From Trypanosoma brucei (lineage: Eukaryota), in assembly GCA_000002445.1 (NCBI GenBank), contig AL929603.2, positions 64,001-128,000 on the forward strand: a stretch of DNA of 64,000 nt. The letters are read 5' to 3'. The notes beneath the pieces are model-generated. The model saw only the letters and a list, made by a program, of their open reading frames with translations, made no database searches and was not told the DNA's origin. Each line of letters opens with the position of its first letter. The first letter of the stretch is position 1. This document shows, one piece after another, positions 11,424-63,735 of this stretch. The position numbers were made by a program, and so were the translations under genes.

Positions 11424-13915
11424 TCAGGCAGCGGGGCCACCAGCAATAGCGTTTGGTTCATCCTGGGTGATCTCCTTAACAATATTCCCTTCCATCTTCA
11501 CTTGAAACTGGTTGATTCTATTCCACAACTCTGTAGTATAATCGCCTCTGCCCCCAACTGGTTCGCACTTCTGCCTCTCCTCGATTGGCTTGCTGTCACT
11601 GTACTGTATGTAAATCAGCTCCCATTTCAAGTTTCTTGCGAGCTTATCCCATTCACCAAACAATTGTTTCATTGCCTTGATAAACTTATCTACCTTCTCT
11701 CGTGTCGTGTGATGCGTTGGTGCCACTGTCGGCTGGAGCAGAACAATTGTTCTTGTAATGATCGCTCTTCCTTCTCTATCAACAGCTGGCTCAGTTACAA
11801 AGAAAAAGGCGTCCACAACGGGGAAATTTCCCTGTACAGGTCGGTAAAGGCACCCAACCTCAATGTCTTGGCCTGTCGTTTCGGGTAAATATGACGAAGT
11901 GAAGTTGGAACACGTCCCACGGCATTACCACTTGCCAGAGCGGATACATTTGAATCCATTTCTTCTCCAACGCGAGGGAGATACCGCAGGTGCGTCACAA
12001 TCGTCTGCACAACATTTCCCATCGTGAAGGCATATATGCCCACATTTTCAAATTCATCAGCGGCCTGCTCTTTTTTCCCACGAAAAACCTTTCGAAGGTA
12101 ATTGTCTCGCATACATGCTGTGTCCGCCCACTCTCTCAATTTCTGCTCAATATCAATGGAAACAGCTCTGTTTCTGCATTCTTCTCCATTCTCAGTTACA
12201 ACCCGGACCAACTTAGCCAACCTGTATGTAGTCCCGTCCTCGCGCCATTCAACTCGACTATTCAGCACCTTCATGTAGTGTTCAGCATCGCCTCTACTGA
12301 TTTCTGCCAGTGCCTCATTTATTTCTCTAACATGGTCACAATAGGGTTTGTCACCTTCCAGTACGTGGCGGGGCAGTGGGCCCACCTTCTTAATCCATCC
12401 TTCTATTTTCTGCCATTCATTCTCAAGGTTTATGATGTGAGCTTCGGTGATTTTACTTTCGTCCAACTTCGACAGCCGCCTCCACGCAACCGCAGCCTTC
12501 AGTTCCACCTCTTCATAGCAATTGATGCAAAAGCGCTCGCAAGCCCGTGGCCGCTTCCAGCGTCTGTAGTTATTTGGATCTGGAGATGTCAACACAATTA
12601 CGGGCCACGTTTCCGGCAATTTTGTCGGTATGGGTTCATCTCTCTCTTTCGCAAAGTCGTATATAATGTAACCAAGACCTTCTTCATCAGCCAAGTCATT
12701 GACAGCATCCACTCCATCTTTTTCTTCTTCATAAAATACAACCTTTCTCGGATGATCATTTGTCGCCCTGAAGAAAATATATGCCCTACCCTTCACAAAA
12801 TAAGCGATAATCCGCAACAGCTCCGAATCGTAATGCAGCAACCTTTGGAGCAGAAACGAGCCAACACCAAATGATTTCCCAATACCTGGAGTGCCAACGA
12901 GGACGCAAGGTATCTTTTTTTTATTCACGCCTGGCCCTAACCACAAATCCAGCCTCTGCTTCACAAGATACCACACTCTCATTACCTCTCGACGAATGTA
13001 CACATCCCGGTCAAACACGTAGTCTCCTGGTTCCTCCGCACCCTCTTGAATTACACTTCGCGGAATGCGGAAACGGTTATACGGCCAACCCTTCTGCGAG
13101 GTGAGCACAGCAATCTCCAAATTACCGTGACGAGGCAGTGGGTCGCACAAGTCATAAGGCGTGTGACTGACATTCACCTCCTCTTCTGTCCACAACTCGG
13201 GCTCGCCGTCACAATTACCCACAACCTTCATGCCAAGAGGTAAATCATTGTGACCCGACTCCACATAACCCCACGTCGCATTGTATATGGATTCATATAC
13301 TCCTTTCAGTTCGACACCATCAGCTTTTTGGGCAGCTCTTTTCCTTGCTTCTTTGGCGGCCGCCAACGCTCCATCCAACCTTCCCCTCGCCATGGGACCA
13401 ACAAATTCTCTTATTTCCACTGTCCCCTTCTCCTCCCACTGACTGAGGTAGTAAATTTCTTTTTCGTCAAGGTACCTTGCTTTCCGCTTCATTTCAGAGA
13501 ATTGGTTATATAATTCTTTATATTCCTCAAACTCATCAAGCCGCCGTATCCTTCCTAGAATCCCGGCATCCAAAATATAATCCTCCGGGCTCTGGACAAA
13601 CACATCCATTGCCACATTCTCTGTGTCATACGTATTAGAGAATTTTTTCAGCAAAAAGTCATGCACTGTCATATCCCTCAAACCCGCATAATCATCCAGC
13701 AGCACATCCCTCACCTTACTATCCATTGTCCAGTTGGGCCCCCCTTCAGTTCTCTGCCGTATTTGTGGAGGCTGAGCAGCAGCAGCAGCAGCAGGAGGAG
13801 GAGGCGGCGGTACATTTTCATCCCGTGGCCTCCTCATGGGCCCTTCAAAATTATCTGCCACTTGTTGATTTTCATTATTTCCTTGTGGAGCTGCGGGACT
13901 ATTTGCTCTTGACAT
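11424..13915 (-). pseudogene. RHS: RHS type-2 copy a. Full length of 830 codons, but frameshifted by a 1-bp deletion in a G/C homopolymer (GGG at 11883..11885, where the paralog at 27824..27827 has GGGG).
   Basis: The 706-aa ORF (11795..13915) and the 130-aa ORF (11424..11816) together are collinear with the paralog 27365..28843 plus 34052..35081. The downstream ORF matches the paralog C-terminus (FFFVTEPAVDREGRAI...AIAGGPAA) in the -1 frame. Confidence 0.8.
12845..12856 (-). other. Unoccupied (empty) ingi hot-spot target TTCTGCTCCAAA (minus-strand sense) in RHS2a. It is identical to the TSD flanking ingi-1.
   Basis: Plus strand 12845..12856 reads tttggagcagaa, followed by acgagccaacacc. Exactly this 12-mer is duplicated at 28786..28797 and 34052..34063. 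Confidence 0.85.
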
Positions 13916-21853: not shown

Positions 21854-24355
21854 CTATGCATTGTTACCACCTCTATTGTTAACTCCGTTGTTATTTTCAC
21901 CTCTTGTTTTCAATTCAACGTATAGTGCAATAATGTGTTTATAAAGTGAGACCGCGAACTGACGCACTTCCCTTTTCCAAAATCTTTCCTCAACCTCATT
22001 ATTTTGCCCTTCATCTCTGTCAGTCCTTTCACAGCACTGCGGCTTCGTAATTTTTTCGCTGTCAACCCTTTGGACATAAATTATTTCCCATACCATATCA
22101 TTGGAAAAATTGTCCCAACCTTGGAAGTAACTTCGCAAATACCTCTTCATCTTAAATAACCCACCGGTGCTGCAGGGATGTCTACCGGAAACTGTGTACT
22201 GCAGTCCCACAAAAGTCTTCGGGCTCTCAACGAAAAAGAACGCATCAACAACTGGGAAACTCCTTGATTGCGGCTTGTACAATTTCATATATTGAATTTC
22301 AGCTCCAGCTACAATTGGAACATCCTCGGGAACCACAATCGAAGGACCAATGAGTCTTGGTTCTTGCAGCACCTGCAGCACACTTTGTGGAATTTGATTC
22401 CTAGCAAATGAAAGGCCCTGTAACTCCCTTGCCAACTCAGTTAGTGTATTCTCATGCGACAATGCTTCAATGCCACTCTTCTCAAACATGTAGGCGGCGA
22501 TAGCGCGGTTAGACAGCAGAGCAGACATTGCAGCATATTTATCCGTTAGCCAAGGTATCAGAAAGTCTAAAATAGCTTGTCCCGTGTAAGATGAAAGCGG
22601 TCTGCAGCGATACATTTCACACAGGAGCTTCTCCTCCTTCACTCGAACAACCCCTACTAACTTGTGTGATACTTCATCTGTTTGCCACATAGCTGCGTTT
22701 TGGAAATATTTAGCGTAATCATTCATATCATCATCTTTCATTTTGCCAATGGCTTCCTGAACCTTTCCCTCCTGCCTATTATACGAACTAAGACGACCAA
22801 TATGACGAAGCAGTGGACCAACGATACGAATGCGAGCTTGAATTTCTTGCCATTCACTTTCAATTTTCTCCTTTGCAACTGGAGGACTCCACTTGTAAGC
22901 AGGAGCAATTTTCCCCCATCTCGATATGTGTATGGCTTCCAAATCCTTCAATGTATCACAGTTCATGTAAATATCTGAGGCGGTGTTTTGCTTGGACCAT
23001 TCATGGAATTGCTTGACGTTTGGAGAGCTCAAAGCAATACCGGCACAACCAGCAGGTGGTTTCGTCGGAGCAGGATGGTCCTTGTCCACATCGAATATAA
23101 CGTATCCCTTGATATCCTCACCGCTACGTGATCCTCCGATTATTTGCTCAACAACTGTAAATGCATTCCCATAATCATTGTAAAACGTAACATATCCTGC
23201 TCGACCACCTATGGGTTTGTGAAACACATACGCCTTACCCCTCACAACGTATATGATAATCTGAAGCTGACTCGCTTCATAATGCAGTAGTTTGTATAAC
23301 AGTAGGGATCCCACGGAAAACGATTTACCAATACCAGGTGTACCAATAAGAACATTAGACGCATCGTCAACAATCACTTCATCCATAAGCCACCGGTTAA
23401 GCACATTCTCCACCTTGTACCACACCCTCAGTGCTTCCCTGCGGATATAAACATCACTTTTAAAAACATACTCCACTCCCTTCTCATGATTAATATCATA
23501 ATCATTTGGGTTCTTTTCGAAAGACGTGTATGGCCAACCCATTTGAGATGTAAGCACAGCAATCTCCAAGTTACCGTGACGGGGAAGTGGTTCGTTCATA
23601 GTTTCCGGAGTGTGACTGACATCAACCTCCTCCTTCGTCCACATGTGTGGCGGTCTTCCATTGAACACTTTCATGCCAAGTGGCTCTTCATCATAACCCG
23701 ACTCCACATAACCCCACGTCGCATTGTATATAGAATCATATACTCCTTTAAGTTCGCTACCATCAGCTGTTTGGTGAGCTCGCTTTTCCGCTCTCTTGGC
23801 GGCCGTCACCGCTCCATCCAACCTTCCCCTCGCCACGGGACCAACAAATTCTCTTATTTCCACTGTCCCCTTCTCCTCCCACTGACTGAGGTAGTAAATT
23901 TCTTTTTCGTCAAGGTAGTCTACCTTCTCAGACAGATCAATAGCTGTCTTCACTGTTTTAAACTCATTAGTGCCTTGTATATCCTCAAGAATCTCAGCAT
24001 CAACAATATATTTTCTGGGATTCTTAACAAAAATGGGCATCCTAACATTTTCTGCCTCAGCCACCGCAAAAGTCCCGCCAACGAACTTCTGAATAAAGTC
24101 GTTCACTGTCATATCCCTCAAACCCGCATAATCATCCAGCAGCACATCCCTCACCTTACTATCCATTGTCCAGTTGGGCCCCCCTTCAGTTCTCTGCCGT
24201 ATTTGTGGAGGCTGAGCAGCAGCAGCAGCAGCAGGAGGAGGAGGCGGCGGTACATTTTCATCCCGTGGCCTCCTCATGGGCCCTTCAAAATTATCTGCCA
24301 CTTGTTGATTTTCATTATTTCCTTGTGGAGCTGCGGGACTATTTGCTCTTGACAT
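21854..24355 (-). CDS. RHS: RHS protein, type-1 copy b, 833 aa, intact.
   Basis: ATG-initiated 2502-nt ORF. It differs from 5904..8405 at two codons (A to H in RAAQTADG and G to A in EIQGRIRIV) plus a few silent changes. Confidence 0.8.
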   Translation of the reverse strand: MSRANSPAAPQGNNENQQVADNFEGPMRRPRDENVPPPPPPAAAAAAQPPQIRQRTEGGPNWTMDSKVRDVLLDDYAGLRDMTVNDFIQKFVGGTFAVAEAENVRMPIFVKNPRKYIVDAEILEDIQGTNEFKTVKTAIDLSEKVDYLDEKEIYYLSQWEEKGTVEIREFVGPVARGRLDGAVTAAKRAEKRAHQTADGSELKGVYDSIYNATWGYVESGYDEEPLGMKVFNGRPPHMWTKEEVDVSHTPETMNEPLPRHGNLEIAVLTSQMGWPYTSFEKNPNDYDINHEKGVEYVFKSDVYIRREALRVWYKVENVLNRWLMDEVIVDDASNVLIGTPGIGKSFSVGSLLLYKLLHYEASQLQIIIYVVRGKAYVFHKPIGGRAGYVTFYNDYGNAFTVVEQIIGGSRSGEDIKGYVIFDVDKDHPAPTKPPAGCAGIALSSPNVKQFHEWSKQNTASDIYMNCDTLKDLEAIHISRWGKIAPAYKWSPPVAKEKIESEWQEIQARIRIVGPLLRHIGRLSSYNRQEGKVQEAIGKMKDDDMNDYAKYFQNAAMWQTDEVSHKLVGVVRVKEEKLLCEMYRCRPLSSYTGQAILDFLIPWLTDKYAAMSALLSNRAIAAYMFEKSGIEALSHENTLTELARELQGLSFARNQIPQSVLQVLQEPRLIGPSIVVPEDVPIVAGAEIQYMKLYKPQSRSFPVVDAFFFVESPKTFVGLQYTVSGRHPCSTGGLFKMKRYLRSYFQGWDNFSNDMVWEIIYVQRVDSEKITKPQCCERTDRDEGQNNEVEERFWKREVRQFAVSLYKHIIALYVELKTRGENNNGVNNRGGNNA

Positions 24356-27364: not shown

Positions 27365-28785
27365 TCAGGCAGCGGGGCCACCAGCAATAGCGTTTGGTTC
27401 ATCCTGGGTGATCTCCTTAACAATATTCCCTTCCATCTTCACTTGAAACTGGTTGATTCTATTCCACAACTCTGTAGTATAATCGCCTCTGCCCCCAACT
27501 GGTTCGCACTTCTGCCTCTCCTCGATTGGCTTGCTGTCACTGTACTGTATGTAAATCAGCTCCCATTTCAAGTTTCTTGCGAGCTTATCCCATTCACCAA
27601 ACAATTGTTTCATTGCCTTGATAAACTTATCTACCTTCTCTCGTGTCGTGTGATGCGTTGGTGCCACTGTCGCCTGGAGCAGAACAATTGTTGTTGTAAT
27701 GATCGCTCTTCCTTCTCTATCAACAGCTGGCTCAGTTACAAAGAAAAAGGCGTCCACAACGGGGAAATTTCCCTGTACAGGTCGGTAAAGGCACCCAACC
27801 TTGATGTCTTGGCCTGTCGTTTCGGGGTAAATATGACGAAGTGAAGTTGGAACACGTCCCACGGCATTACCACTTGCCAGAGCGGATACATTTGAATCCA
27901 TTTCTTCTCCAACGCGAGGGAGATACCGCAGGTGCGTCACAATCGTCTGCACAACATTTCTCATCGTGAAGGCAAATATGCCCACATTTTCAAATTCATC
28001 AGCGGCCCGCTCTTCTTTCCCACGAAAAACCTTTCGAAGGTAATTGTCTCGCATACATGCTGTGTTCGCCCACACTCTCAATTTCTGCTCAATATCAATG
28101 GAAACAGCTCTGTTTCTGCATTCTTCTCCATTCTCAGTTACAACCCGGACCAACTTAGCTAACATGTAAGTAGTCCCGTCCTGGCGCCATTGAACTCGAC
28201 TATTCAGCACCTTCATGTAGTGACTATCATCGCCTCTACTGATTTCTGCCAGTGCCTCATTTATTTCTCTAACGCGGCCCTTGTAGCGTTTTTCACCTTC
28301 CAGTACTTGGCGGGCCAGTGGGCCCACCTTCTTAATCCATCCTTCTATTTTCTGCCATTCATTCTCAAGGTTTATGATGTGAGCTTCGGTGATTTTACTT
28401 TCGTCCAACTTCGACAGCCGCCTCCACGCAACCGCAGCCTTCAGTTCCACCTCTTCATAGCAATTGATGCAAAAGCGCTCGCAAGCCCGTGGCCGCTTCC
28501 AGCGTCTGTAGTTATTTGGATCTGGAGATGTCAACACAATTACGGGCCACGTTTCCGGCAATTTTGTCGGTATGGGTTCATCTCTCTCTTTCGCAAAGTC
28601 GTATATAATGTAACCAAGACCTTCTTCATCAGCCAAGTCATTGACAGCATCCACTCCATCTTTTTCTTCTTCATAAAATACAACCTTTCTCGGATGAACA
28701 TTTGTCGCCCTGAAGAAAATATATGCCCTACCCTTCACAAAATAAGCGATAATCCGCAACAGCTCCGAATCGTAATGCAGCAACC

Positions 28786-28797
28786 TTTGGAGCAGAA
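28786..28797. repeat. Target-site duplication, 3' copy, of ingi-1 (plus strand tttggagcagaa; element sense TTCTGCTCCAAA).
   Basis: Immediately follows the element poly(A), which is a plus-strand T10 at 28798..28807. It is a 12/12 match to 34052..34063. Confidence 0.85.
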
Positions 28798-29069
28798 TTT
28801 TTTTTTTGAATTTTCTTCGTGCCTTCGTGAGAGTTTCTCCCAACTGGCGCGGCCATCAGCCATCACCGTAGAGCCCTGAGATGCTATCGGTCTGGCGACT
28901 GTGGCAGAGTCTCCCTTTTTTATTCATCCTAACACACCCTCTATAATTTTTGTTGTAGCTCCGCATATGAACGGAATACAGTAGATGGGGCGAGAAGCCC
29001 CCCTCACCCCGGACTCTCCCAAAGATGTCAATTAGCAATCCTTTTGTTTTGATTTTTGTTATTCGTTTA

Positions 29070-32000
29070 TTATTCTCTCCCCCTCTTTCTGTTTCTGTTG
29101 CTTGTTGACTGCATACCTCCTCTGTCTCTGAGGGTGTCTGGACTATTCCTGCGTCCGGTGCTTTTCCTGCTAGCTCCACATTCGGCAATAAGGGGGGAAG
29201 TTGCAGAAGGGAGAGTGGGTTGTATGACTGTTACCTTAGGTGAGGACTTCACCTGCGGCCGGCTCCGTTCAACCGCAATGAGAAACTGCGCCAGCCTTTT
29301 GGAGAAACATACATCCTGCACACACTCACCTTCTACCGCAAATCTGACACGTAACTCCTTCAAACCGGGACAGCTCATCAAGTGCAGCGACGTTTCTTCG
29401 CAGTCGCCGCGTTGGCTGGTAACAGCGCGCTCTACCTTCATACCGTGCATCTTCTTTTGATGTAGGGTGAGGCCAGTTTTGCTAGCACACTGCCTTCCGC
29501 ATGTCGGGCACACCAACATGGATGTGTTTGTATGCGGGGAATCAGTGGCACACAATTTTGTGCTTTTGCTGCATTTAAGCTCGACTCCCTCACCTTTGTG
29601 GAAAGCCTTACAGTGTCGGATGAGGGAGTCCCTGCAACTGAGCACTTTTTGGCACACACCACACTGCACCTCGCCCTTCCCCGGGACGTCAACGTTTCCC
29701 TCACGGGCACGCTTACGAGGGAATTGCACCAACACCACGGTACCGTCCTCCGTCACTATGCTTTTATGTTTGAATTTCTTGTGTAGTGTCAGGGAAGAAC
29801 GTGTACCGAAGCTCGCCTCGCACAGGTCACATTGAAACGGCAGCTTCCGTGTATCCTGAGAGGCTGGCGCTGCTGGGGCTTTACCATCTCCTTGCACTGA
29901 GTCCTCGTTCTCTCGCCCCCTTTTCACGCGGCAACTGCCGCTGCCTATGCCATGTATTGTTCTAAGGTGGTGTAGTAGTCTGCCTGGCACTGCGAATTTG
30001 GAGGCACAGATGGTACAATGAAGCACCTGCGGTCTCATCGGGACTCGTGTGCTCGATGGTAGGGGAACGATCGCCACCACTGGAGGGGGCTCCGGGGGGA
30101 TATCCACTGCAGGTGTTGCATCGCCGTATTTGATCCTCCGGAGGGCATCAGCTCGCACAAAGCCATGTTTGTTTACCATATGCGTTACAGCACTCGAGCG
30201 GCATTGGTATGTGGCATCACATTCCGTACATTTGGTCGGTTCGGAGGTTCTTTGAAGAGTGCGTGTCGCAACAGTTGGGGCTGTTTGTATTGTTGGCCCT
30301 ATCTCTGCATGTTGCGGGTTGCACCATCGGCACTGTGGAGGCACACTCGGGTTAATCTTTCGCAACATCCATCCATAGTGTCTTGAAGACCCAACCCGAA
30401 AGCGTGCCAGTGCCGTTTCTTCTTCCCTCGTCAGTTCTTCCTTATGTTTTGTTGGAAAGTGGTTGCCCGTGATACCAAACCTATGAGTGTTCTCATGGAC
30501 TTCTTCCGACCTAAGCACTCGCTTCGCATAAGCAATGATGTCGGGGATCCATGTGTCTCGCAACTGTGGTAAATCTGCGGCCTTTTTGGCCATGTCATCG
30601 CAAACCTCATTCCGTTTCACGCCACAATGGCCAAACACAAATTGCAGTCGGATACGTATCTTCCTTCTCTGAACTTGAAGCAGAAGCCTCCATAGTCGTC
30701 TTAGAATTGGGTCCGTTACGGCTAGGGGGCCTGTCTGCAGTGCTGTTAACATTGACAGCGAGTCAGAGAAGATGGACAACCTGCTCGGTGTGGTTCTGTA
30801 TGCCGGAAGCCATTTCAGCAGCCGTTGCAGTCCTATCTCTAATGCTACGCATTCCGCTCTGTAACTGCATGAAAGTTCCCCTGCTCCTGTCTTAGGTGCA
30901 CAAATCAGCGTGTTGTTTCTATAGAGCAGGGCAGCTGCTCCGGACTTCTCACCGAGGGACACGGATCCATCAGTCCACAATTCGTAGTGCTCTCGCCGCG
31001 GTGGCTCCTTCCCCCTCCGTGCAAAATGTCGTTCAATCCACTTTTCGGAAGCCTCCCTTTTGACATCGTCAGGGTCATCAGCGCACACAGGCTTTATCTG
31101 CGTGTGAAATATCGGTCGGCAGCTGTGGCGGAGCGTCGATGTCTCTAGTGGGTGCTCGCGTGGCTCAATGCGGAGGTGGGGGTAGGACCGCATGATACGG
31201 GAATGTAGGGCTCTGACTGGGTGTTTGCTGTGGTATACTTCTTCAGCACTGCGCCGCAAACATCCGCCTCGTGACTCACACATCAGCATGAATTTCATGC
31301 TGCGCACAAGAGTGGCCGTCTTGAGTGGCAGGAGGTTTGCTTCCAGCAGAGAGTCCTCTTTGCGCGTCCCATGCGGTATGCCGGCTATGATGCGACTGGC
31401 TTTGTGTTGTGCTGATGCAAGGAGGTCGCGACTTCGTTCCGAAGCGTCCCAGTACCATACCTCAATGCCATACATGGTGTGTGCCTGTACGAGTGCTAGA
31501 TAAAAAGTTCTCAGTACTTGTCGTCTTGGCCCCCATGTAGAAGCTGAGATGGCTGCTATCTGCAGTAGTCGGAAGTCCATCTTGCGTCTCGTTTCGGCCG
31601 CATGTGTTGCCATCCCCTGCAGACACTGGAATGTTACTCCTAGAAGCTTCGGTGTCCTGTCAGCTCCTATTCTTTCACCGTCCAGTTGTAATGTAAGGGG
31701 GTGGCGCTCTATACACCCGAAGAGTGTGCACTTTGTTTTCGCTACGTTGACAGACATGAAGTACTCTTTTGACCACTGTAACACCACGTTTAGACCGCAT
31801 TGTAGTGTGTGGTTGATGACATCCCTCTCTGTGTGCCTCGCAAGTAGCGTTAGGTCGTCTGCAAAGAATCCGTGCTGCAGTAACGGCACCTCTGCAAGGC
31901 GTTGGCTCAACGAGTTCATGACAATAATGAACATGATTGGGCCAAGGACAGTTCCTTGTGGCACTCCTCGCTCAAATGTTCTGCTTCTGGAAAGCTTCTC

Positions 32001-34051
32001 CTTGAATCTCACTCTGCCAGTTCGGTTACTCAGAAATGATACGCACCACTTCACAATGTGGGGTGATACCTTCATTCTGTGCATTTCCCTCGCAATTTTG
32101 TCGTGGTCTACTGTATCAAATGCCTTCTCGTAGTCAACGAATACAGCACCCGTACGATATTGGTGCGTGGGACGGCAGAGGGCAGCGCGGACGTGCAGGA
32201 GTTGTTCGAGCGTTGAGCATCCGGGGCGAAAGCCTGATTGCTGCGGCGTCAGCTGGGACTCAACAGTGTCTCTAAGTCTCGCGGCAATTATGCGCTCCAT
32301 GACTTTGCAGAGACAGCTCGTGAGCGTCACAGGCCTGTAAGAATCGAGGTCCTCCGCCTTTTTTCCGGCCTTCAGGATGGGGATGATAACACCAGTCTTC
32401 CATGCAGGCGGCACGACTCCCGTTCGTAGGCTCTCATTGAATAGCCTCAGAACAACATTCAGCGCTGTTCTGCCGAGATGTTGCAGTGCCTCGTTGTATA
32501 AGCAATCAGGTCCGGCTGCGGATCCACTCGGTAGCAGTTTGATCGATCTCCGTAGTTCAGCCATCGTGATGGGACTGAACTCACTCGCTATCGTCTTTAT
32601 TGGTGCCGGTGGGTGTGAGTCGGGGTGCCTTCTTGCGCGGGACGAGTACAGTTTACTGAACCTCTCAGCTTGACGGTAGTCCGTGATGGCCGCGTTATCT
32701 ACAAGTACAGCCGGTGTGGTTAGTGGTCGTGGCGCATATACCTTCTTGACAATGTGCCAACTGCAGCGGTCTGACACCGCAAGTCTGGAGCATAGCGTGC
32801 TCCATCTCTTCTTTGTGGTACGGTCCAGGATCTGCTTACGCGTGGCTACCAACTTTTCCCTTCGGTGGGAGGGTCCGCATCCAGCGATCTCTTCATCGAG
32901 TTTCGCGAGCTCAGGTGTCCAATGTGGTGGCGTTGCTCTGCAGCCACGGGGGACGGAGACCTTCGTCGCAATGCGGATGGCGGAGCTCAATTTCTGTTCC
33001 AGGGTGTTGACGTTCTTCTCTCTACCAATTTTCCTGCAGAGCTCGTCAACCTTGAGACGGAAATTCCTCCAGTTAGCTTTTAGCCATGCGTACATGGGCT
33101 TTTGAAGCCGCGGGCAACTCAGTGCATCTGTGTCGTCTCCAACGATAACGTCGAAAAATATGTGATGGTGATCGCTATCGGGAGAATACAGCGATGTCCA
33201 CGTGTACACTGTGCAATTCCTTGACAGTGTCACATCAGGGGTGGACTCCCCGTGGTGGCGCGCGTACCTGGTGCACTCACCAGTGTTGCAGACCAGAAAC
33301 TGGTTGTCAATGCACCACTGTGTGAGGGTTTCACCCTTGGTATTTGGTGGGCTCGCGCGATCCCATGCCAACGCGTGTGCGTTAGCGTCTGCACCGATGA
33401 GCTGGGCACCGTCAGTCGTCAGAAGCGTATCTAGGTCAGTTGCCGTGAAGGTGTGTTTTGGTGGGATGTATGCCGACGTGACAGTCAGCGCCGTTCCACG
33501 TGCAAGGTGAATTGTTGCATGCACTTGTTCAATGCGACCAATAACGGCCATACCGGTCTCGACTGGTAGGTCCTCCCTCACTAGTATTGATACACCACCT
33601 CCTTTGCAGTTACGAGCTATTCCGTGATGTTGGTAGCCAGCAACGCTAAAGCAAGCCGCCTCTCCAGGCGTCATCCTTGTCTCGCTCAACAGACAAAAGG
33701 CGATCCGCTCATCAACAAGGGTTTTGTGGAGTGCTAATCTCTTTCCTTGAGATAGCCCGGCGCAGTTCCACTGCATCCCGCGCAACGACGGGCCGGGATT
33801 CTCTTCCACATCACCGGACAGCAGCATCTTAGTGCGGATGATACTGCTGATGGCACGCTGGCACGTGCCCAGGGACCGACAAATGAAAGACGGTGTCCCA
33901 GCAAGACGCTGCTGATCCCTGTGCTGTATGATGCCGTAGCCGGAGCACAGCAGTGTTCCCCATGAAAGGAACGCTGCTGGCTCTTGGCTTCCCCCGATGA
34001 TACGGGGTACTGGACCCTGGCACCACGTTGAGGTGGCCGGCATCGCCAGGG
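29070..34051 (-). CDS. ingi polyprotein ORF of about 1660 codons with no stop or frameshift. Domains in protein order: leader with 2A-like motif; APE-type endonuclease (about 33132..33776); reverse transcriptase (about 31752..32534, FADD motif); RNase H (about 30582..30989, HYELWTDGS...); five C2H2 zinc fingers (about 29442..30227). The stop codon is at 29070..29072.
   Basis: This is the ingi-derived portion of the 2003-aa ORF 29070..35081. Domain motifs were read from the translation: MQWNCAGLSQ...FFDVIVGDD for the endonuclease; PQGTVLGPIMF...GFFADDLTLL for the RT; CTECDATYQCRSSAVTHMVNKHG and CPTCGRQCASKTGLTLHQKKMHG for the fingers. It is in frame with the upstream RHS codons. The element's own first ATG is at nt 9..11. 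Confidence 0.8.
33789..33812 (-). other. 2A-like co-translational 'self-cleaving' motif DVEENPGP, in the context IIRTKMLLSGDVEENPGP|SLRGMQWNCAG. It lies about 80 codons into ingi-1, upstream of the endonuclease domain.
   Basis: Codons 424 to 431 of the 2003-aa ORF; plus strand cgggccgggattctcttccacatc. It matches the D(V/I)ExNPG|P consensus of viral 2A and of 2A-like sequences reported in trypanosomatid L1Tc/ingi elements. Confidence 0.85.
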
Positions 34052-34063
34052 TTTGGAGCAGAA
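34052..34063. repeat. Target-site duplication, 5' copy, of ingi-1 (tttggagcagaa).
   Basis: These are the last 12 nt of the RHS 5' part (codons F-L-L-Q plus A) abutting the ingi 5' end at 34051. Confidence 0.85.
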
Positions 34064-35081
34064 ACGAGCCAACACCAAATGATTTCCCAATACCTGGAGT
34101 GCCAACGAGGACGCAAGGTATCTTTTTTTTATTCACGCCTGGCCCTAACCACAAATCCAGCCTCTGCTTCACAAGATACCACACTCTCATTACCTCTCGA
34201 CGAATGTACACATCCCGGTCAAACACGTAGTCTCCTGGTTCCTCCGCACCCTCTTGAATTACACTTCGCGGAATACGGAAACGGTTAAACGGCCAACCCT
34301 TCTGCGAGGTGAGCACAGCAATCTCTAAATTACCGTGACGAGGCAGTGGGTCGCACAAGTCATAAGGCGTGTGACTGACATTCACCTCCTCTTCTGTCCA
34401 CAACTCGGGCTCGCCGTCACTATTACCCACAACCTTCATGCCAAGAGGTAAATCATTGTGGCCCGATTCCACATAACCCCACGTCGCATTGTATACGGAT
34501 TCATATACTCCTTTCAGTTCGACACCATCAGCTGTTTGGTGAGCTCGTTTCCTTGCTTCTTTGGCGGCCGCCAACGCTCCATCCAACATTCCCCTCGCCA
34601 CGGGACCAACAAATTCCCTTATTTCCCCTCTTCCCTTCTCCTCCCACTGCCGGAGGTAGTAAATTTCCTTCTCAGACAGATAAATAGCTGCCCTCACTGT
34701 TTTAAATTCATCAAGCCGCCGTATCCTTCCTAGAATCCCGGCATCCAAAATATAATACTCCGGGCTCTGAACAAACACATCCATTGCCACATTCTCTGTG
34801 TCATACGTATTAGAGAATTTTTTCAGCAGAAAGTCATGCAACTTCATATCCCTCAAACCCTCACAGCGTTGCAGCAATACATCTTCAATAGAACTATTCA
34901 TCGTCCAGTTGGGCCCCTCTTCAGTTCTCTGCCGTATTTGTGGAGGCTGAGCAGCAGCAGCAGCAGGAGGTGGCGGTACATTTTCATCCCGTGGCCTCCT
35001 CATGGGCCCTTCAATATTACCTGCCACTTGTTGGTTTTCATTATTTCCTTGTGGAGCTGCGGGACTATTTGCTCTTGACAT

Positions 35082-49022: not shown

Positions 49023-49055
49023 CTTCCTTATAACACTTCCCCCCCTCGTTTGATT
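49023..49055 (+). promoter_or_regulatory. Polypyrimidine tract upstream of the LRR gene ATG; a putative trans-splice signal.
   Basis: cttccttataacacttccccccctcgtttgattc followed by AG dinucleotides at 49062 to 49090. The ATG is at 49137. This is inference only. Confidence 0.3.
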
Positions 49056-49136
49056 CATCGCTTAGCTCTATTATTAAAAAAGAAAAAGCATTTCCTCAAC
49101 ACTCAGCACCTCAAGGAATCGGAAACGGGAACTACA

Positions 49137-57989: not shown

Positions 57990-58517
57990 TTAATCAAGAA
58001 CAATACTCAACATTTTGCTTCAGGACACCAGACACTTATTCTGGGAGAAAAGCGTCTGAGGGAACGTGAAGCAAGAGGTGATAATGTTTTCAGTTTATAT
58101 GGCTCCGTATGCAATTCAAAGTGGAGTGACATTATAATGGACAATGGAACTCAAATGCTGGGCATGAAGTTTGTTGATGGAACGCGTGCTGATGATATAA
58201 TGTGGAAAGATGAAGAAGTTAATGTCGTCCCCAAAATTGAGGAAACTTTTGAACATAAGCCGGAACGCACGGGAAGGAGGTGAAGCAACGGTTCCAACAT
58301 CTTAAATGGAGTGGTCGTACTCACAGTTTAATATTTAAATTCACAATGACATTCTCATTCAGAGAAAGGACTGGAGACTGAAATGTTGTGGAAAGAAAGC
58401 TCTGCGCTTGGCCAGCTGAGGAAACTCGAATACTAAGACACGCACCAAATCCTTACATTGTGATTGGAAACTCCAGAATCAGTAAGTCACTGGCCATCGG
58501 CTCACTTCTCCTTCACA
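57990..58517 (+). pseudogene. RHS: Highly degenerate RHS pseudogene, 5' fragment up to the hot spot (…YIVIGNSRISKSLAIGSLLLH).
   Basis: Weak but collinear similarity to the RHS region ...LKGVYDSIYNATWGYVESG...LGMKVFNG...WTKEEVDVSHTP...LIGTPGIGKSFSVGSLLLY. The window has YGSVCNSKWSDIIMDNGTQMLGMKFVDG...MWKDEEVNVVPKIEE...IVIGNSRISKSLAIGSLLLH. The reading frame is broken by stops. Confidence 0.55.
58506..58517. repeat. Target-site duplication, 5' copy, of ingi-2 (ttctccttcaca).
   Basis: These 12 nt precede the ingi 5' end (ccctggcgatgcc at 58518). They are a 12/12 match to 63724..63735. Confidence 0.85.
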
Positions 58518-61500
58518 CCCTGGCGATGCCGGCCACCTCAACGTGGTGCCAGGGTCCAGTACCCCGTATCATCGGGGGAAGCCAAGAGCCAGCAGAGTTC
58601 CTTTCATGGGGAACACTGCTGTGCTCCGGCTACGGCATCATACAGCACAGGGATCAGCAGCGTCTTGCTGGGACACCGTTTTTCATTTGTCGGTCCCTGG
58701 GCACGTGCCAGCGTGCCATCAGCAGTATCATCCGCACTAAGATGCTGCTGTCCGGTGATGTGGAAGAGAATCCCGGCCCGTCGTTGCGCGGGATGCAGTG
58801 GAACTGCGCCGGGCTATCTCAAGGAAAGAGATTAGCACTCCACAAAACCCTTGTTGATGAGCGGATCGCCTTTTGTCTGTTGAGCGAGACAAGGATGACG
58901 CCTGGAGAGGCGGCTTGCTTTAGCGTTGCTGGCTACCAACATCACGGAATAGCTCGTAACTGCAAAGGAGGTGGTGTATCAATACTAGTGAGGGAGGACC
59001 TACCAGTCGAGACCGGTATGGCCGTTGTTGGTCGCATTGAAAAAGTGCATGCAACAATTCACCTTGCACGTGGAACGGCGCTGACTGTCACGTCGGCATA
59101 CATCCCACCAGAACACACCTTCACGGCAACTGACCTAGATACGCTTCTGACGACTGACGGTGCCCAGCTCATCGGTGCAGACGCTAACGCACACGCGTTG
59201 GCATGGGATCGCGCGAGCCCGCCAAATACCAAGGGTGAAACCCTCACACAGTGGTGCATTGACAACCAGTTTCTGGTATGCAACACTGGTGAGTGCACCA
59301 GGTACGCGCGCCACTACGGGGAGTCCACCCCTGATGTGACACTGTCAAGGAATTGCACAGTGTACACGTGGACATCGCTGTATTCTCCCGATAGCGATCA
59401 CCATCACATATTTTTCGACGTTATCGTTGGAGACGACACAGGTGCACTGAGTTGCCCGCGGCTTCAAAAGCCCATGTACGCATGGCTAAAAGCTAACTGG
59501 AGGAATTTCCGTCTCAAGGTTGACGAGCTCTGCAGGAAAATTGGTAGAGAGAAGAATGTCAACACCCTGGAACAGAAATTGAGCTCCGCCATCCGCATTG
59601 GACACCTGAGCTCGCGAAACTCGATGAAGAGAGCGCTGGATGCGGACCCTCCCACCGAAGGGAAAAGTTGGTAGCCACGCGTAAGCAGATCCTGGACCGT
59701 ACCCCAAAGAAGAGATGGAGCACGCTATGCTCCAGACTTGCGGTGTCAGACCGCTGCAGTTGGCACATTGTCAAGAAGGTATATGCGCCACGACCACTAA
59801 CCACACCGGCTGTACTTGTTGATAACGCGGCCATCACGGACTACTGTCAAGCTGAGAGGTTCAGTAAACTGTACTCGTCCCGCGCAAGAAGGCACCCCGA
59901 CTCACACCCACCGGCACCAATAAAGACGATAGCGAGTGAGTTCAGTCCCATCACGATGGCTGAACTACGGAGATCGATCAAACTGCTACCGAGTGGATCC
60001 GCAGCCGGACCTGATTGCTTATACAACGAGGCACTGCAACATCTCGGTAGAACAGCGCTGAATGTTGTTCTGAGGCTATTCAATGAGAGCCTACGAACGG
60101 GAGTCGTGCCGCCTGCATGGAAGACTGGTGTTATCATCCCCATCCTGAAGGCCGGAAAAAAGGCGGAGGACCTCGATTCTTACAGGCCTGTGACGCTCAC
60201 GAGCTGTCTCTGCAAAGTCATGGAGCGCATAATTGCCGCGAGACTTAGAGACACTGTTGAGTCCCAGCTGACGCCGCAGCAATCAGGCTTTCGCCCCGGA
60301 TGCTCAACGCTCGAACAACTCCTGCACGTCCGCGCTGCCCTCTGCCGTCCCACGCACCAATCTCGTACGGGTGCTGTATTCGTTGACTACGAGAAGGCAT
60401 TTGATACAGTAGACCACGACAAAATTGCGAGGGAAATGCACAGAATGAAGGTATCATCCCACATTGTGAAGTGGTGCGTATCATTTCTGAGTAACCGAAC
60501 TGGCAGAGTGAGATTCAAGGAGAAACTCTCCAGAAGCAGAACATTTGAGCGAGGAGTGCCACAAGGAACTGTCCTTGGCCCAATCATGTTCATTATTGTC
60601 ATGAACTCGTTGAGCCAACGCCTTGCAGAGGTGCCGTTACTGCAGCACGGATTCTTTGCAGACGACCTAACGCTACTTGCGAGGCACACAGAGAGGGATG
60701 CCATCAACCACACACTACAGTGCGGTCTAAACGTGGTGTTACAGTGGTCAAAAGAGTACTTCATGTCTGTCAACGTAGCGAAAACAAAGTGCACACTCTT
60801 CGGGTGTATAGAGCGCCACCCCCTTACGTTGCAACTGGACGGCGAAAGAATAGGAGCTGACAGGACACCGAAGCTTCTAGGAGTAACATTCCAGTGTCTG
60901 CAAGGGATGGCAACACATGCGGCCGAAACGAGACGCAAGATGGACTTCCGACTACTGCAGATAGCAGCCATCTCAGCTTCTACATGGGGGCCAAGACGAC
61001 AAGTACTGAGAACTTTTTATCTAGCACTCGTACAGGCACACACCATGTATGGCATTGAGGTATGGTACTGGGACGCTTCGGAACGAAGTCGCGACCTCCT
61101 TGCATCAGCACAACACAAAGCCAGTCGCATCATAGCCGGCATACCGCATGGGACGCGCAAAGAGGACTCTCTGCTGGAAGCAAACCTCCTGCCACTCAAG
61201 ACGGCCACTCTTGTGCGCAGCATGAAATTCATGCTGATGTGTGAGTCACGAGGCGGATGTTTGCGGCGCAGTGCTGAAGAAGTATACCACAGCAAACACC
61301 CAGTCAGAGTCTTACATTCCCGCATCATGCGGTCCTACCCCCACCTCCGCATTGAGCCACGCGAGCACCCACTAGAGACATCGACGCTCCGCCACAGCTG
61401 CCGACCGATATTTCACACGCAGATAAAGCCTGTGTGCGCTGATGACCCTGACGATGTCAAAAGGGAGGCTTCCGAAAAGTGGATTGAACGACATTTTGCA

Positions 61501-63723
61501 CGGAGGGGGAAGGAGCCACCGCGGCGAGAGCACTACGAATTGTGGACTGATGGATCCGTGTCCCTCGGTGAGAAGACCGGGGCAGCTGCCCTGCTCTATA
61601 GAAACAACACGCTGATTTGTGCACCAAAGACCGGAGCAGGGGAACTCTCATGCAGTTACAGAGCGGAATGCGTAGCATTAGAGATAGGACTGTAACGGCT
61701 GCTGAAATGGCTTCCGGCTTACAGAAGCACACCGAGCAGGTTGTCCATCTTCTCTGACTCGCTGTCAATGTTAACAGCACTGCAGGCAGGTCCACTAGCC
61801 GTAACGGACCCAATTCTGAGACGACTATGGAGGCTTCTGCTTCAAGTTCAGAGAAGGAAGGTGCGTATCCTAATTCAATTTATGTTCGGTCATTGTGATA
61901 TGAAACGGAATGAGGTTTGTGATGAAATGGCTAAAAAGGCCGCAGATTTACCACAGTTGCGAGACACATGGATCCCCGACATCATTGCTTATGCGAAGCG
62001 AGTGCTTAGGTCGGAAGAAGTCCATGAGAACACTCATAGGTTTGGTATCACTGGCAACCACTTTTCAACAAAATATAAAGAAGAACTGACGAGGGAAGAA
62101 GAAACGGCACTGGCACGCTTTCGGGTTGGGTCTTCAAGACACTATGGATGGATGTTGCGAAAGATCAACCCGAGTGTGCCTCCACAGTGCCGATGGTGCA
62201 ACCCGCAACATGCAGCGATAGGGCCAACAATACAAAAGGCCCCAACTGTTGCGACACGCACTCTTCAGAGAACCTCCGAACCGACCAAATGTACGGAATG
62301 TGATGCCACATACCAATGCCGCTCGAGTGCTGTAACGCATATGGTAAACAAACATGGCTTTGTGCGAGCTGATGCCCTCCGGAGGATCAAATACGGCGAT
62401 GCAACACCCGCAGTGGATATCCCCCCGGAGCCCCCTCCAGTGGTGGCGATCGTTCCCCTACCATCGAGCACACGAGTCCCGATGAGACCGCAGGTGCTTC
62501 ATTGTACCATCTGTGCCTCCAAATTCGCAGTGCCAGGCCGACTATTACACCACCTTAGAACAATACATGGCATAGGCAGCGGTAGTTTCCGCGTGAAAAG
62601 GGGGCGAGAGAACGAAGACTCATTGCAAGGAGATGGTAGCGCTCCAGCAGCGCCAGCCTCTCAGGATACACGGAAGCTGCCGTTTCAATGTGACCTGTGC
62701 GAGGCGAGCTTCGGTACACGTTCTTCCCTGACACTACACAAAAAATTCAAACATAAAAGCATAGTGACGGAGGACGGTACCGTGGTGTTAGTGCAATTCC
62801 CTCGTAAGCGTGCCCGTGAGGGAAACGTTGACGTCCCGGGGAAGGGCGAGGTGCAGTGTGGTGTGTGTGCCAAAAAGTGCTCAGTTGCAGGGACTCCCTC
62901 ATCCGACACTGTAAGGCTTTCCACAAAGGTGAGGAAGTCGAGCTTAAATGCAGCAAAAGCACAAAATTGTGTGCCACTGATTCCCCCCGTACAAACACAT
63001 CCATGTTGGTGTGCCCGACATGCGGAAGGCAGTGTGCTAGCAAAACTGGCCTCACCCTACATCAAAAGAAGATGCACGGTATGAAGGTAGAGCGCGCTGT
63101 AACCAGCCAACGCGGCGACTGCGAAGAAACGTCGCTGCACTTGATGAGCTGTCCCGGTTTGAAGAAGTTACGTGTCAGGTTTGCGGTAGAAGGTGAGTGT
63201 GTGCGGGATGTATGCTTCTCCAAAAGGCTGGCGCAATTTCTCATTGCGGTTGAACGGAGCCGGCCGCAGGTGAAGTCCTCACCTAAGGTAACAGTCATAC
63301 AACCCACTCTTCCTTCTGCAACTTCCCCCCTTATTGCCGAGTGTGGAGCTAGCAGGAAAAGCACCGGACGCAGGAATAGTCCAGACACCCTCAGAGACAG
63401 AGGAGGTATGCAGTCAACAAGCAACAGAAACAGAAAGAGGGGGAGAGAATAATAAACGAATAACAAAAATCAAAACAAAAGGATTGCCAATTGACATCTT
63501 TTGGAGAGTCCAGGGTGGGAGGCTTCTCGCCCCATCTGCTGTATTCCGTTCATATGCGGAAATACAACAAAAATTATAGAGAGTGTGTTAGGATGAATGA
63601 AAAAGGGAGACTCTGCCACAGTCGCCAGACCGATAGCATTTCAGGGCTCTACGGTGATGGCTGATGGCCGCGCCAGTGGGGGGAAACTCCCACGAAGGCA
63701 CGAAGAAAATTCAAAAAAAAAAA
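58518..63723 (+). mobile_element. ingi: ingi non-LTR retrotransposon copy 2, full length at 5206 bp but degenerate. The ORF is split into 58518..59674, 59668..61695, 61741..63084 and 62856..63452. Poly(A) at 63713..63723.
   Basis: Same 5' terminus and domain order as ingi-1 (about 98% aa identity where alignable). Lesions relative to copy 1: (i) an internal deletion of about 50 bp near 59600, causing a frameshift; (ii) a CAA to TAA nonsense codon at 61693..61695 (LEIGL* where copy 1 has LEIGLQ); (iii) a +2 (GT) expansion at about 62861..62869, causing a frameshift. Confidence 0.9.
58757..58780 (+). other. 2A-like motif DVEENPGP in ingi-2, identical to the one in ingi-1.
   Basis: gatgtggaagagaatcccggcccg; codons 124 to 131 of ORF 58388..59674. 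Confidence 0.85.
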
Positions 63724-63735
63724 TTCTCCTTCACA
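63724..63735. repeat. Target-site duplication, 3' copy, of ingi-2 (ttctccttcaca).
   Basis: Immediately follows the A11 run at 63713..63723. Confidence 0.85.

What the first reader, a model, noticed from the sequence alone, without database searches (positions are those of the whole stretch)
33789..33812. 2A-like DVEENPGP motif at the start of the ingi polyprotein, in frame with 343 upstream host RHS codons. A built-in way to shed host-encoded N-terminal sequence.
What the sequence shows:
- LLSGDVEENPGP|S lies about 80 codons into both ingi copies.
- In copy 1 it is in frame with the RHS ATG at 35081, creating a 2003-codon chimeric ORF.

Established knowledge: D(V/I)ExNPG|P causes ribosomal skipping. 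Functional 2A-like sequences have been described at the N-terminus of trypanosomatid L1Tc/ingi elements.

Inference: kinetoplastids lack gene-specific Pol II promoters. An element that lands in frame inside a transcribed, translated host gene could use the 2A to release its polyprotein from the RHS-derived 423-aa N-terminal fragment. That fragment retains the P-loop. This would explain why in-frame, same-sense hot-spot insertions are tolerated or favoured.
Basis: partly seen in the sequence, partly recalled or inferred. Interest (0 to 1): 0.7.

Follow-up and report, generated by a model that had tools for sequence, protein, structure and literature searches.

The report
Known ingi 2A peptide beside RHS
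The motif is real, but it is the already described ribosome-skipping "2A" peptide of the Trypanosoma brucei ingi retrotransposon, and its in-frame fusion to the host RHS gene is best explained by the element's site-specific insertion rather than by a newly found strategy.

Summary
DVEENPGP lies at window 33812..33789 on the minus strand. It sits in a 2003-codon ORF that joins 343 RHS codons to a complete 1657-codon ingi ORF. The same motif is at 58757..58780 in a second, decayed ingi.

The motif is the published, assay-proven ingi/L1Tc 2A element, and the insertion site is the published RHS hot spot. Both are already known.

It is mechanically possible, but it is not the best explanation:
- Both copies have different 12-bp target-site duplications at the same RHS codon phase, so targeting fixes the frame.
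- ingi has its own ATG at nt 9, conserved in four trypanosome species.
- ingi nt 1-77 are the Pr77 promoter and HDV-like ribozyme, which is reported to cut exactly at the RHS|ingi junction. Its fold shows compensatory changes here.
- RIME has the same 5' end and reading frame, but its 2A is cut off.

One new supporting point for an N-terminal insulator role: the leader before 2A evolves nearly neutrally, while 2A is under purifying selection.

Interest is low. The hitch-hiking hypothesis remains testable.

The parts
33789..33812 (-). 2A core motif DVEENPG|P. These are residues 424-431 of the chimeric ORF and codons 78-85 of the ingi ORF. The predicted skip lies between G430 and P431.
33789..33866 (-). 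Extended 2A region TCQRAISSIIRTKMLLSGDVEENPGP, about 25 aa, the length reported to carry skipping activity.
   Evidence: Translation. pN/pS is 0.22-0.44 between species, similar to the APE domain. The ~25-aa requirement is from PMC11512398.
33867..34043 (-). ingi leader, codons 1-59, starting at the element's own ATG (34043..34041). Codons 1-23 overlap Pr77. Codons 24-59 are a fast-evolving linker.
   Evidence: Linker pN/pS is 0.60-0.93. Pr77 codons have pS 0.11-0.29, against 0.76-0.81 in APE.
33975..34051 (-). ingi nt 1-77: the Pr77 hallmark (internal promoter) and HDV-like ribozyme. The predicted cleavage is immediately 5' of 34051, at the RHS|ingi junction.
   Evidence: P1 1-7:31-37, P2 10-15:72-77, P3 16-19:26-29, P4 45-49:56-60; 91.8% paired, with compensatory changes in P1 and P4. 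Published function is quoted. There is no Rfam match, and the MFE fold does not recover this structure.
28798..34051 (-). Complete ingi copy 1, 5254 bp, ending in A10.
29070..34043 (-). Uninterrupted ingi ORF of 1657 codons plus stop, encoding APE, RT, RNase H and C2H2 zinc fingers.
   Evidence: The length equals the published 'potentially functional' ingi ORF (PMC3447711).
34052..35081 (-). 5' part of the interrupted RHS gene: 343 codons plus 1 nt, starting at the ATG at 35081. It contains DUF7578, RHS_N and the first 22 positions of RHSP.
34080..34103 (-). Walker A / P-loop GTPGIGKS, residues 327-334, retained upstream of the insertion.
34052..34063 (-). 5' copy of the 12-bp target-site duplication TTCTGCTCCAAA.
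28786..28797 (-). 3' copy of the 12-bp target-site duplication TTCTGCTCCAAA.
27365..28785 (-). 3' part of the interrupted RHS (RHSP profile positions 18-312 and the C-terminus). Joined to the 5' part it gives an uninterrupted 816-aa RHS ORF.
12844..12855 (-). Unoccupied hot-spot site in the paralogous intact RHS (11795..13915). It has a single TTCTGCTCCAAA with identical flanks.
58518..63723 (+). ingi copy 2, 5206 bp and decayed. Its ORF is split into 58388-59674, 59668-61695 and 61741-63084. It is 98-99% identical to copy 1.
58757..58780 (+). 2A motif DVEENPGP of copy 2, with nucleotides identical to copy 1.
58506..58517 (+). 5' TSD of copy 2, TTCTCCTTCACA, inside a 67-aa RHS-like relic (IGNSRISKSLAIGSLLLH). 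It is at the same relative position and codon phase as copy 1.
   Evidence: (blastx E = 9e-8 to RHS residues 315-378).
63724..63735 (+). 3' TSD of copy 2, TTCTCCTTCACA, after A11.

Best explanation
The motif is the known 2A (StopGo, ribosome-skipping) peptide of the T. brucei ingi non-LTR retrotransposon.

Shown:
- Copy 1 is a complete 5254-bp ingi with an intact 1657-codon ORF.
- It integrated by target-primed reverse transcription at the canonical RHS hot spot, nine codons after the P-loop, and made a 12-bp duplication.
- ingi's frame is open from nt 1 and its own ATG is at nt 9. The target site always has the same codon phase. So every full-length insertion there is automatically in frame with RHS.

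Inferred, from published assays of ingi/L1Tc 2A and of T2A in T. brucei: a ribosome translating the leader fails to form the G84-P85 bond. It releases the upstream peptide and continues with the Pro-APE-RT-RNaseH-ZnF protein.

The upstream peptide is normally the 84-aa leader. Its first third is dictated by the Pr77 promoter/ribozyme sequence, and its middle part evolves almost neutrally. 2A therefore acts as an N-terminal insulator and, as published, as an attenuator of downstream synthesis.

Separation from RHS is expected mainly at the RNA level, either by Pr77-driven initiation at nt +1 or by HDV-like ribozyme cleavage at nt +1. Removal of a 430-aa RHS-leader fragment by 2A would be a side effect on transcripts that escape cleavage. 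It is not the reason the motif or the in-frame arrangement exists.
For: - Motif, frame and domains.
- Complete element with poly(A) and 12-bp TSD, with the empty site present in a paralog.
- Independent second insertion at the same RHS position and phase, with a different TSD.
- Own ATG at nt 9 and leader-2A layout conserved in four species.
- DVEENPGP between T. brucei and T. theileri shows 4 synonymous and 0 non-synonymous changes.
- Segment pN/pS: 2A 0.22-0.44 and APE 0.31-0.37, against linker 0.60-0.93. Pr77 codons have suppressed synonymous change.
- HDV-like fold is 91.8% paired with compensatory CG<->UA changes in P1 and P4. No shuffle of 500 reaches its covariation score.
- Literature: 2A activity of ingi/L1Tc (PMC3708506; PMC5814959). 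T2A, with the same DVEENPGP, works efficiently in T. brucei (PMC11858757). Pr77 promoter (PMC1874656). Ribozyme cleavage at +1, with ingi/RIME reported active (PMC3185411; PMC4035085).
- RIME lacks NPGP but has the same 5' end and reading frame.
Against: - No expression data are available here.
- Ribozyme activity of ingi itself is quoted in the papers only as 'manuscript in preparation'.
- In L1Tc, sequence downstream and upstream of the ribozyme attenuates cleavage, so uncleaved RHS-ingi mRNA may be common.
- The pseudogene keeps RHS-like 5' processing signals, 93% identical over 300 nt. On such an mRNA, scanning ribosomes would start at the RHS AUG.
- In-frame, same-sense insertions into long host ORFs also occur in GP63 of T. 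theileri and T. grayi.
- The covariation test rests on 10 related sequences. An alternative non-pseudoknotted fold is equally well paired.
Confidence: 0.75

Rival explanations
1. ingi lands in frame in a transcribed, trans-spliced host gene. It uses the host cap and AUG for translation, and 2A releases its polyprotein from the 430-aa RHS-leader fragment. In-frame, same-sense hot-spot insertions are favoured for that reason.
For: - The 2003-codon ORF is uninterrupted from the RHS ATG.
- The RHS 5' flank retains the polypyrimidine/AG region of intact RHS genes.
- The only intact ingi in the window sits in an intact RHS with an AUG. The decayed copy sits in a relic without one.
- The leader upstream of 2A has no conserved protein function, so 2A behaves as a general N-terminal insulator.
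- GP63::ingi-like in-frame fusions exist in two other species.
- Pr77 transcripts are unspliced, and the L1Tc authors describe them as poorly translatable (abstract of PMC3383444; discussion of PMC1874656).
Against: - The frame is fixed by site-specific targeting, so RHS junctions are not independent trials.
- The element has a conserved ATG of its own at nt 9.
- A promoter and a ribozyme lie exactly at the junction.
- RIME has the same 5' end and reading frame without a usable 2A.
- 0 of 4 junctions sampled without frame bias are in frame with a long ORF.
- ingi/RHS are the main siRNA source, 52% of small RNAs. TbAGO1 is cited as controlling RHS-pseudogene transcripts.
- The RHS literature treats the insertions as disruptive.
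Confidence: 0.15
2. 2A works mainly as a translational attenuator. A fraction of ribosomes terminate at the skip and do not resume. This keeps APE/RT protein levels low relative to mRNA, as a form of self-restraint by the element.
For: This was published for L1Tc: a strong imbalance of products with less downstream NL1Tc, attributed to translation (PMC5814959; PMC3708506 section 14). It is compatible with conservation of 2A but not of the leader.
Against: Sequence cannot test it. It is not exclusive of the insulator role. It says nothing about the RHS fusion.
Confidence: 0.35
3. 2A releases a functional N-terminal protein that substitutes for the missing ORF1 (the proposal of Odon et al. 2013).
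For: All ingi-clade elements lack ORF1 and carry 2A at the same place. The leader length, 77 aa before the motif, is conserved in T. brucei, T. grayi and T. theileri.
Against: - Linker codons 24-59 have pN/pS 0.60-0.93.
- Codons 1-23 are conserved at synonymous sites too, which points to nucleotide-level rather than protein-level constraint.
- The T. conorhini leader is largely unalignable in the middle.
- There is no Pfam domain in the leader.
Confidence: 0.08
4. The motif in this copy is an inert relic or a chance match.
For: Copy 2 is a dead element that still carries the identical motif, so presence alone does not prove function.
Against: - Zero matches are expected by chance.
- Copy 1 has a fully intact 1657-codon ORF.
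- The peptide is under purifying selection across species.
- Where elements decay, the motif decays too (L002: GNIEEICGP).
Confidence: 0.03

Closest known systems
ingi / L1Tc 2A-like sequence (Donnelly et al. 2001; Heras et al. 2006; Odon et al. 2013, PMC3708506)
   Same: [quoted passage not shown] It has the same GDVEENPGP core. It is the same object as the one described.
   Different: Nothing structural differs. I recall from memory only, unverified because Donnelly 2001 and Heras 2006 are not held in the paper library, that the assayed T. brucei peptide differs from this copy by one upstream residue. The published functions are attenuation and separate products, not host-sequence shedding.
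Viral 2A peptides (Thosea asigna T2A, FMDV F2A, picornavirus 2A-NPGP)
   Same: The C-terminal eight residues DVEENPGP are identical to T2A. LLSGDVE(E/Q)NPGP also occurs in limnipivirus 2As. It is a co-translational skip at G|P. T2A is efficient in T. brucei.
   Different: It lies at the extreme N-terminus behind a short, non-conserved leader, not between functional polyprotein domains. It is cellular and retroelement-borne.
HDV-like ribozyme release of retrotransposon RNA from host co-transcripts (R2Rz; L1TcRz, PMC3185411, PMC4035085)
   Different: It acts on RNA, not protein. Activity of the ingi version is only cited as unpublished. The fold is supported here only by limited covariation.
RHS retrotransposon hot spot (Bringaud et al. 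2002, as cited in PMC7563717 and PMC6393297)
   Same: The insertion is at the conserved site just after the ATP/GTP-binding motif, in the same sense as RHS. It splits the gene into two halves.
   Different: Here both RHS halves are still intact and the ingi ORF is intact, so the event is recent.

Membership tests
2A / StopGo (NPGP) recoding peptide | C-terminal motif D(V/I)ExNPG|P | tested here: met
   DVEENPGP is at 33812..33789 (-) and 58757..58780 (+).
2A / StopGo (NPGP) recoding peptide | A suitable ~20-25 aa upstream tract, since the motif alone is insufficient | tested here: inconclusive
   The tract CQRAISSIIRTKMLLSG is conserved across four species, with pN/pS 0.22-0.44. It resembles active viral 2As. 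Suitability can only be shown by assay.
2A / StopGo (NPGP) recoding peptide | In frame with, and followed without a stop by, a downstream protein | tested here: met
   1573 codons follow in frame in copy 1.
2A / StopGo (NPGP) recoding peptide | Actual ribosome skipping, giving two products from one ORF | not testable with these tools
   Published for ingi/L1Tc peptides in vitro and in vivo, but not for this exact copy.
ingi (ingi/L1Tc clade non-LTR retrotransposon) | A ~5.25-kb element with the Pr77 hallmark at nt 1-77, a single long ORF (APE, RT, RNase H, zinc fingers), a poly(A) tail and a 12-bp TSD | tested here: met
   5254 bp, a 1657-codon ORF, A10, and TSD TTCTGCTCCAAA. The published ORF length of 1657 aa is quoted.
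RHS gene interrupted at the hot spot | RHS_N and RHSP domains, with the element inserted just downstream of the P-loop, in the same sense, and the two halves rejoining into one ORF | tested here: met
   Pfam domains, the reconstructed 816-aa ORF and the empty paralogous site.
HDV-like self-cleaving ribozyme (L1TcRz type) | A nested double-pseudoknot with P1, P2, P3 and P4, with the cleavage site at the 5' end of P1 | tested here: inconclusive
   A hand-drawn fold is 91.8% paired over 10 sequences, with compensatory changes in P1 and P4. However, there is no Rfam hit, the MFE fold differs with z = -0.61, and an alternative fold is equally well paired.
HDV-like self-cleaving ribozyme (L1TcRz type) | Self-cleavage activity | not testable with these tools
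   Activity for ingi/RIME is stated only as unpublished data in PMC3185411 and PMC4035085.

The most novel reading that the evidence does not exclude
ingi-clade elements use a two-layer insulation system, a ribozyme at the RNA level and 2A at the protein level. This lets copies that land in frame in expressed multigene families (RHS in T. brucei, GP63 in T. theileri and T. grayi) borrow the host's spliced-leader cap and AUG for translation. Such in-frame copies would be the main source of retrotransposition-competent protein. The hot-spot frame would then be a selected property, and the NPG-terminated, P-loop-bearing RHS fragment a regular by-product.
Probability: 0.12. Interest if true: 0.6.

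Novelty: already known. Interest (0 to 1): 0.22.

Why it matters
If the hitch-hiking idea were true, it would explain how a retrotransposon gets translated in an organism where all mRNAs need a trans-spliced cap. It would also explain why 2A sits at the N-terminus of single-ORF non-LTR elements in many phyla.

As it stands, the locus is a clean textbook example of known features. It has a recent, intact ingi at the RHS hot spot with its 2A, its Pr77/ribozyme region and an empty-site paralog. That makes it a convenient substrate for the experiment, but not a discovery.

Tried and rejected
- Rfam scan of the ingi 5' end at a permissive E-value: no HDV-like family, only chance-level hits.
- MFE folding of nt 1-79: it does not recover the HDV-like fold and is not more stable than shuffles. 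The alternative MFE fold is equally well paired across species but shows no covariation excess.
- Genome-wide junction survey through the protein database:
  - The leader query gave only 38 mostly fragmentary proteins.
  - A junction-spanning query gave only 2.
  - RHS::ingi chimeras are essentially unannotated, so no frame or orientation statistics could be made.
  - The collections that can be scanned for DNA patterns are described as viral, metagenomic or bacterial/archaeal, so I did not scan them for trypanosome junctions.
- The rough count of 8 of 21 annotated N-termini with an in-frame upstream extension is close to the ~25-33% expected without bias (my own estimate from codon frequencies, not a tool result). 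It is dominated by annotation artefacts, so I do not use it as evidence.
- Bringaud 2002, Bringaud 2009 and Heras 2006 are not held in the paper library. What they say is taken from papers that cite them.
- L002 (T. b. gambiense) looked like an orthologue of the copy-2 locus but is only paralogous.
Full report
**Observation.** The minus strand at 33812..33789 reads GAT GTG GAA GAG AAT CCC GGC CCG, which is DVEENPGP. It lies in ORF 29070..35081 (-), 2003 codons from an ATG. A degenerate pattern for the motif hits only this site and 58757..58779 (+). Shuffles of the window give 0.00 expected hits. Pfam assigns residues 76-345 to RHS (DUF7578, RHS_N and only positions 1-22 of the 312-position RHSP P-loop domain). 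The rest is assigned to a non-LTR element with Exo_endo_phos, RVT_1, RNase_H and zf-C2H2. RHS contributes 343 complete codons plus one base. Codon 344 is the junction codon A|CC. ingi's own ATG is residue 347, and the skip site is G430|P431.

**Anatomy of copy 1.**
- The element starts with CCCTGGCGATGCC... at 34051 and ends with A10 at 28798, a length of 5254 bp.
- It is flanked by a perfect 12-bp duplication, TTCTGCTCCAAA, at 34063..34052 and 28797..28786.
- Removing the element and one duplication copy restores an uninterrupted 816-aa RHS ORF.
- The paralogous intact RHS at 11795..13915 carries the unoccupied site, with one TTCTGCTCCAAA and identical flanks.
- The ingi ORF from its own ATG is 1657 codons without interruption. 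This is the length published for a potentially functional ingi (PMC3447711).
- This is therefore a recent insertion of an apparently competent ingi into a previously intact RHS gene.

**Anatomy of copy 2.** The second element (58518..63723, +) is 98-99% identical to copy 1 but broken into three ORFs. Its duplication is TTCTCCTTCACA, so it was an independent event. The reconstructed empty site is a 67-aa RHS relic that aligns to RHS residues 315-378 across the P-loop (blastx E = 9e-8). The insertion point and codon phase are the same as in copy 1 (...GSLLLH|TLAMPATS against ...GSFLLQ|TLAMPATS). There is no in-frame ATG upstream, and a stop lies 46 codons upstream.

**What is already known.**
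- Functional 2A sequences at the N-terminus of the single ORF of ingi and L1Tc have been published and assayed. The proposed roles are down-regulation of the downstream product and production of a separate N-terminal product (PMC3708506; PMC5814959).
- T2A ends in the same DVEENPGP and works efficiently in T. brucei (PMC11858757).
- The RHS family is named for this insertion site just after the ATP/GTP-binding motif (PMC7563717; PMC6393297).
- The first 77 nt of L1Tc, ingi and RIME are an internal Pol II promoter (PMC1874656).
- As RNA, the same 77 nt form an HDV-like ribozyme that cuts at nt +1 to free the element RNA from host co-transcripts. ingi/RIME activity is reported as unpublished data (PMC3185411; PMC4035085).
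- In the passages I read, I found no published statement that 2A serves to shed host-encoded sequence.

**Testing the interpretation.**
1. Frame. Two independent events hit the same nucleotide position of RHS. The ingi frame is open from nt 1, with the ATG at nt 9. Every full-length hot-spot insertion is therefore in frame by construction, and RHS junctions are one trial, not many.
2. Own start codon. MPATS... at nt 9 is conserved in ingi-like elements of T. brucei, T. grayi, T. theileri and T. conorhini.
3. RNA-level separation. On an alignment of ten 5' ends from four species, a hand-drawn HDV-like fold is 91.8% paired, against 32-53% for slid controls. It has compensatory CG<->UA changes in two P1 pairs and two P4 pairs, and no shuffle of 500 reaches its covariation score. 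The J4/2 stretch GGAAGC.AAG is invariant apart from one position. Caveats:
   - I derived the fold from the T. brucei sequence.
   - Rfam has no matching family.
   - MFE folding gives another structure with z = -0.61.
   - That other structure is also 93% paired, though without covariation excess.
4. RIME. RIME-encoded products end ...LLSGDVE|LQKKK, so the RIME deletion breakpoint lies inside the motif (P0016, P0017). RIME has the same 5' end and reading frame as ingi but has no NPGP.
5. Other junctions. Four junctions were retrieved through proteins that begin at the element's own ATG, so they were not selected for frame (L001, L005, L006, L007). None of them is in frame with a long upstream ORF.
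   - The 300 nt upstream of the pseudogene's ATG are 93% identical to those of intact RHS genes, including the polypyrimidine/AG region.
   - Real in-frame, same-sense insertions into a long host ORF exist elsewhere. One is an ingi-like element in a GP63 gene of T. theileri, with TSD ACAAGGCA[C/A]ACT and 312 open codons upstream. T. grayi has one at the same Peptidase_M8 profile position, 328.
   - These were found through in-frame annotation, so they say nothing about bias.

**Selection pattern (new here).** I compared T. brucei with T. theileri and T. grayi copies.

| Segment | Result |
|---|---|
| Codons 1-23 (Pr77) | pS 0.11-0.29, so synonymous change is suppressed |
| Codons 24-59 (linker) | pN/pS 0.60-0.93, near neutral |
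| Codons 60-85 (2A) | pN/pS 0.22-0.44 |
| APE domain | pS 0.76-0.81; pN/pS 0.31-0.37 |

The suppressed synonymous change in codons 1-23 points to constraint at the nucleotide level. Within DVEENPGP there are four synonymous and no non-synonymous differences between T. brucei and T. theileri. The counts are small and some copies are dead, but the contrast between segments is consistent. The leader is therefore not a conserved protein. This argues against an ORF1-like product. It fits 2A as a device that detaches whatever is translated upstream of APE, which is normally the peptide forced on the element by its 5'-terminal promoter/ribozyme.

**Mechanism.**
- Shown: the sequence, the frame, the element structure, the independent targeting and the conservation.
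- Inferred from published assays: ribosomes skip at G84|P85 of the ingi ORF, release the leader and continue with the Pro-APE-RT-RNaseH-ZnF protein.
- Inferred: separation from RHS occurs chiefly through Pr77 initiation or ribozyme cleavage at the junction. On any uncleaved, trans-spliced RHS-ingi mRNA, scanning ribosomes would start at the RHS AUG, and 2A would then release a 430-aa RHS-leader fragment. That fragment would contain the Walker A motif but only 22 of the 312 NTPase-domain positions.

**Verdict.** The feature is already known. Interest is 0.22. The most novel reading not excluded is translational hitch-hiking on host genes with two-layer insulation (probability about 0.12, interest 0.6 if true). 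The needed tests are a junction census by independent TSDs, long-read and SL RNA-seq across 34052|34051, ribosome profiling, and targeted mass spectrometry for the junction and NPG-terminal peptides.

Noticed in passing
L003:10206-15517 (T. theileri NBCO01000013.1) and L008:1831 (T. grayi JMRU01001791.1): ingi-like elements are inserted in GP63 (Peptidase_M8) genes, in the same sense and in frame. Both sit at the same profile position, 328 of 529, in the two species. The T. theileri copy has a 12-bp TSD, ACAAGGCA[C/A]ACT, and the GP63 remainder follows at 15625. This may be a second hot-spot gene family or one ancient insertion.
   Followed up: partly
P0016 and P0017 (T. b. gambiense RIME-encoded ORFs); the equivalent of window 33801-33812: The RIME internal deletion breakpoint falls inside the 2A motif (...LLSGDVE|LQKKK). 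RIME keeps the leader and the frame but has no NPGP.
   Followed up: partly
window 28798-34051 (-): Copy 1 is one of the rare ingi copies with a fully intact 1657-codon ORF. Both halves of its host RHS are also still open, so it looks like a recent, possibly retrotransposition-competent element.
   Followed up: yes
window ~1-16000 versus ~16000-37800: There is a segmental tandem duplication of about 16 kb carrying two RHS genes per unit. RHS 5904-8405 and RHS 21854-24355 are 99.8% identical. RHS 11795-13915 is the uninterrupted counterpart of the ingi-bearing pseudogene.
   Followed up: partly
P0006, P0009, P0010, P0015, P0018, P0020, P0025, P0028, P0033; L004, L007, L008 (T. grayi): All T. 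grayi copies carry Asn instead of the canonical Asp at the first motif position (GNVEENPGP). This is a lineage-wide variant, and whether it still skips is unknown.
   Followed up: no
window 33973-34051 (-) and alignment A2: The Pr77 region supports two mutually exclusive folds, the HDV-like pseudoknot and a long three-helix hairpin. Both are about 92-93% base-paired across four species. This recalls the conformational switch proposed for L1TcRz.
   Followed up: partly
window 48972-53318 (+); L002:1-3554: A 1448-aa leucine-rich-repeat protein gene lies 5 kb upstream of ingi copy 2. A T. b. gambiense locus has a 90%-identical LRR gene followed by an RHS relic with a decayed element 5' end. That locus is paralogous, not orthologous.
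   Followed up: partly
window 34052 and 58517 (nt -1 of both junctions): Both T. brucei junctions have A at -1. It could pair with U38 and extend ribozyme helix P1 by one pair. In L1Tc, P1 extension by the -1 base was reported to lower cleavage. This was not evaluated further.
   Followed up: no
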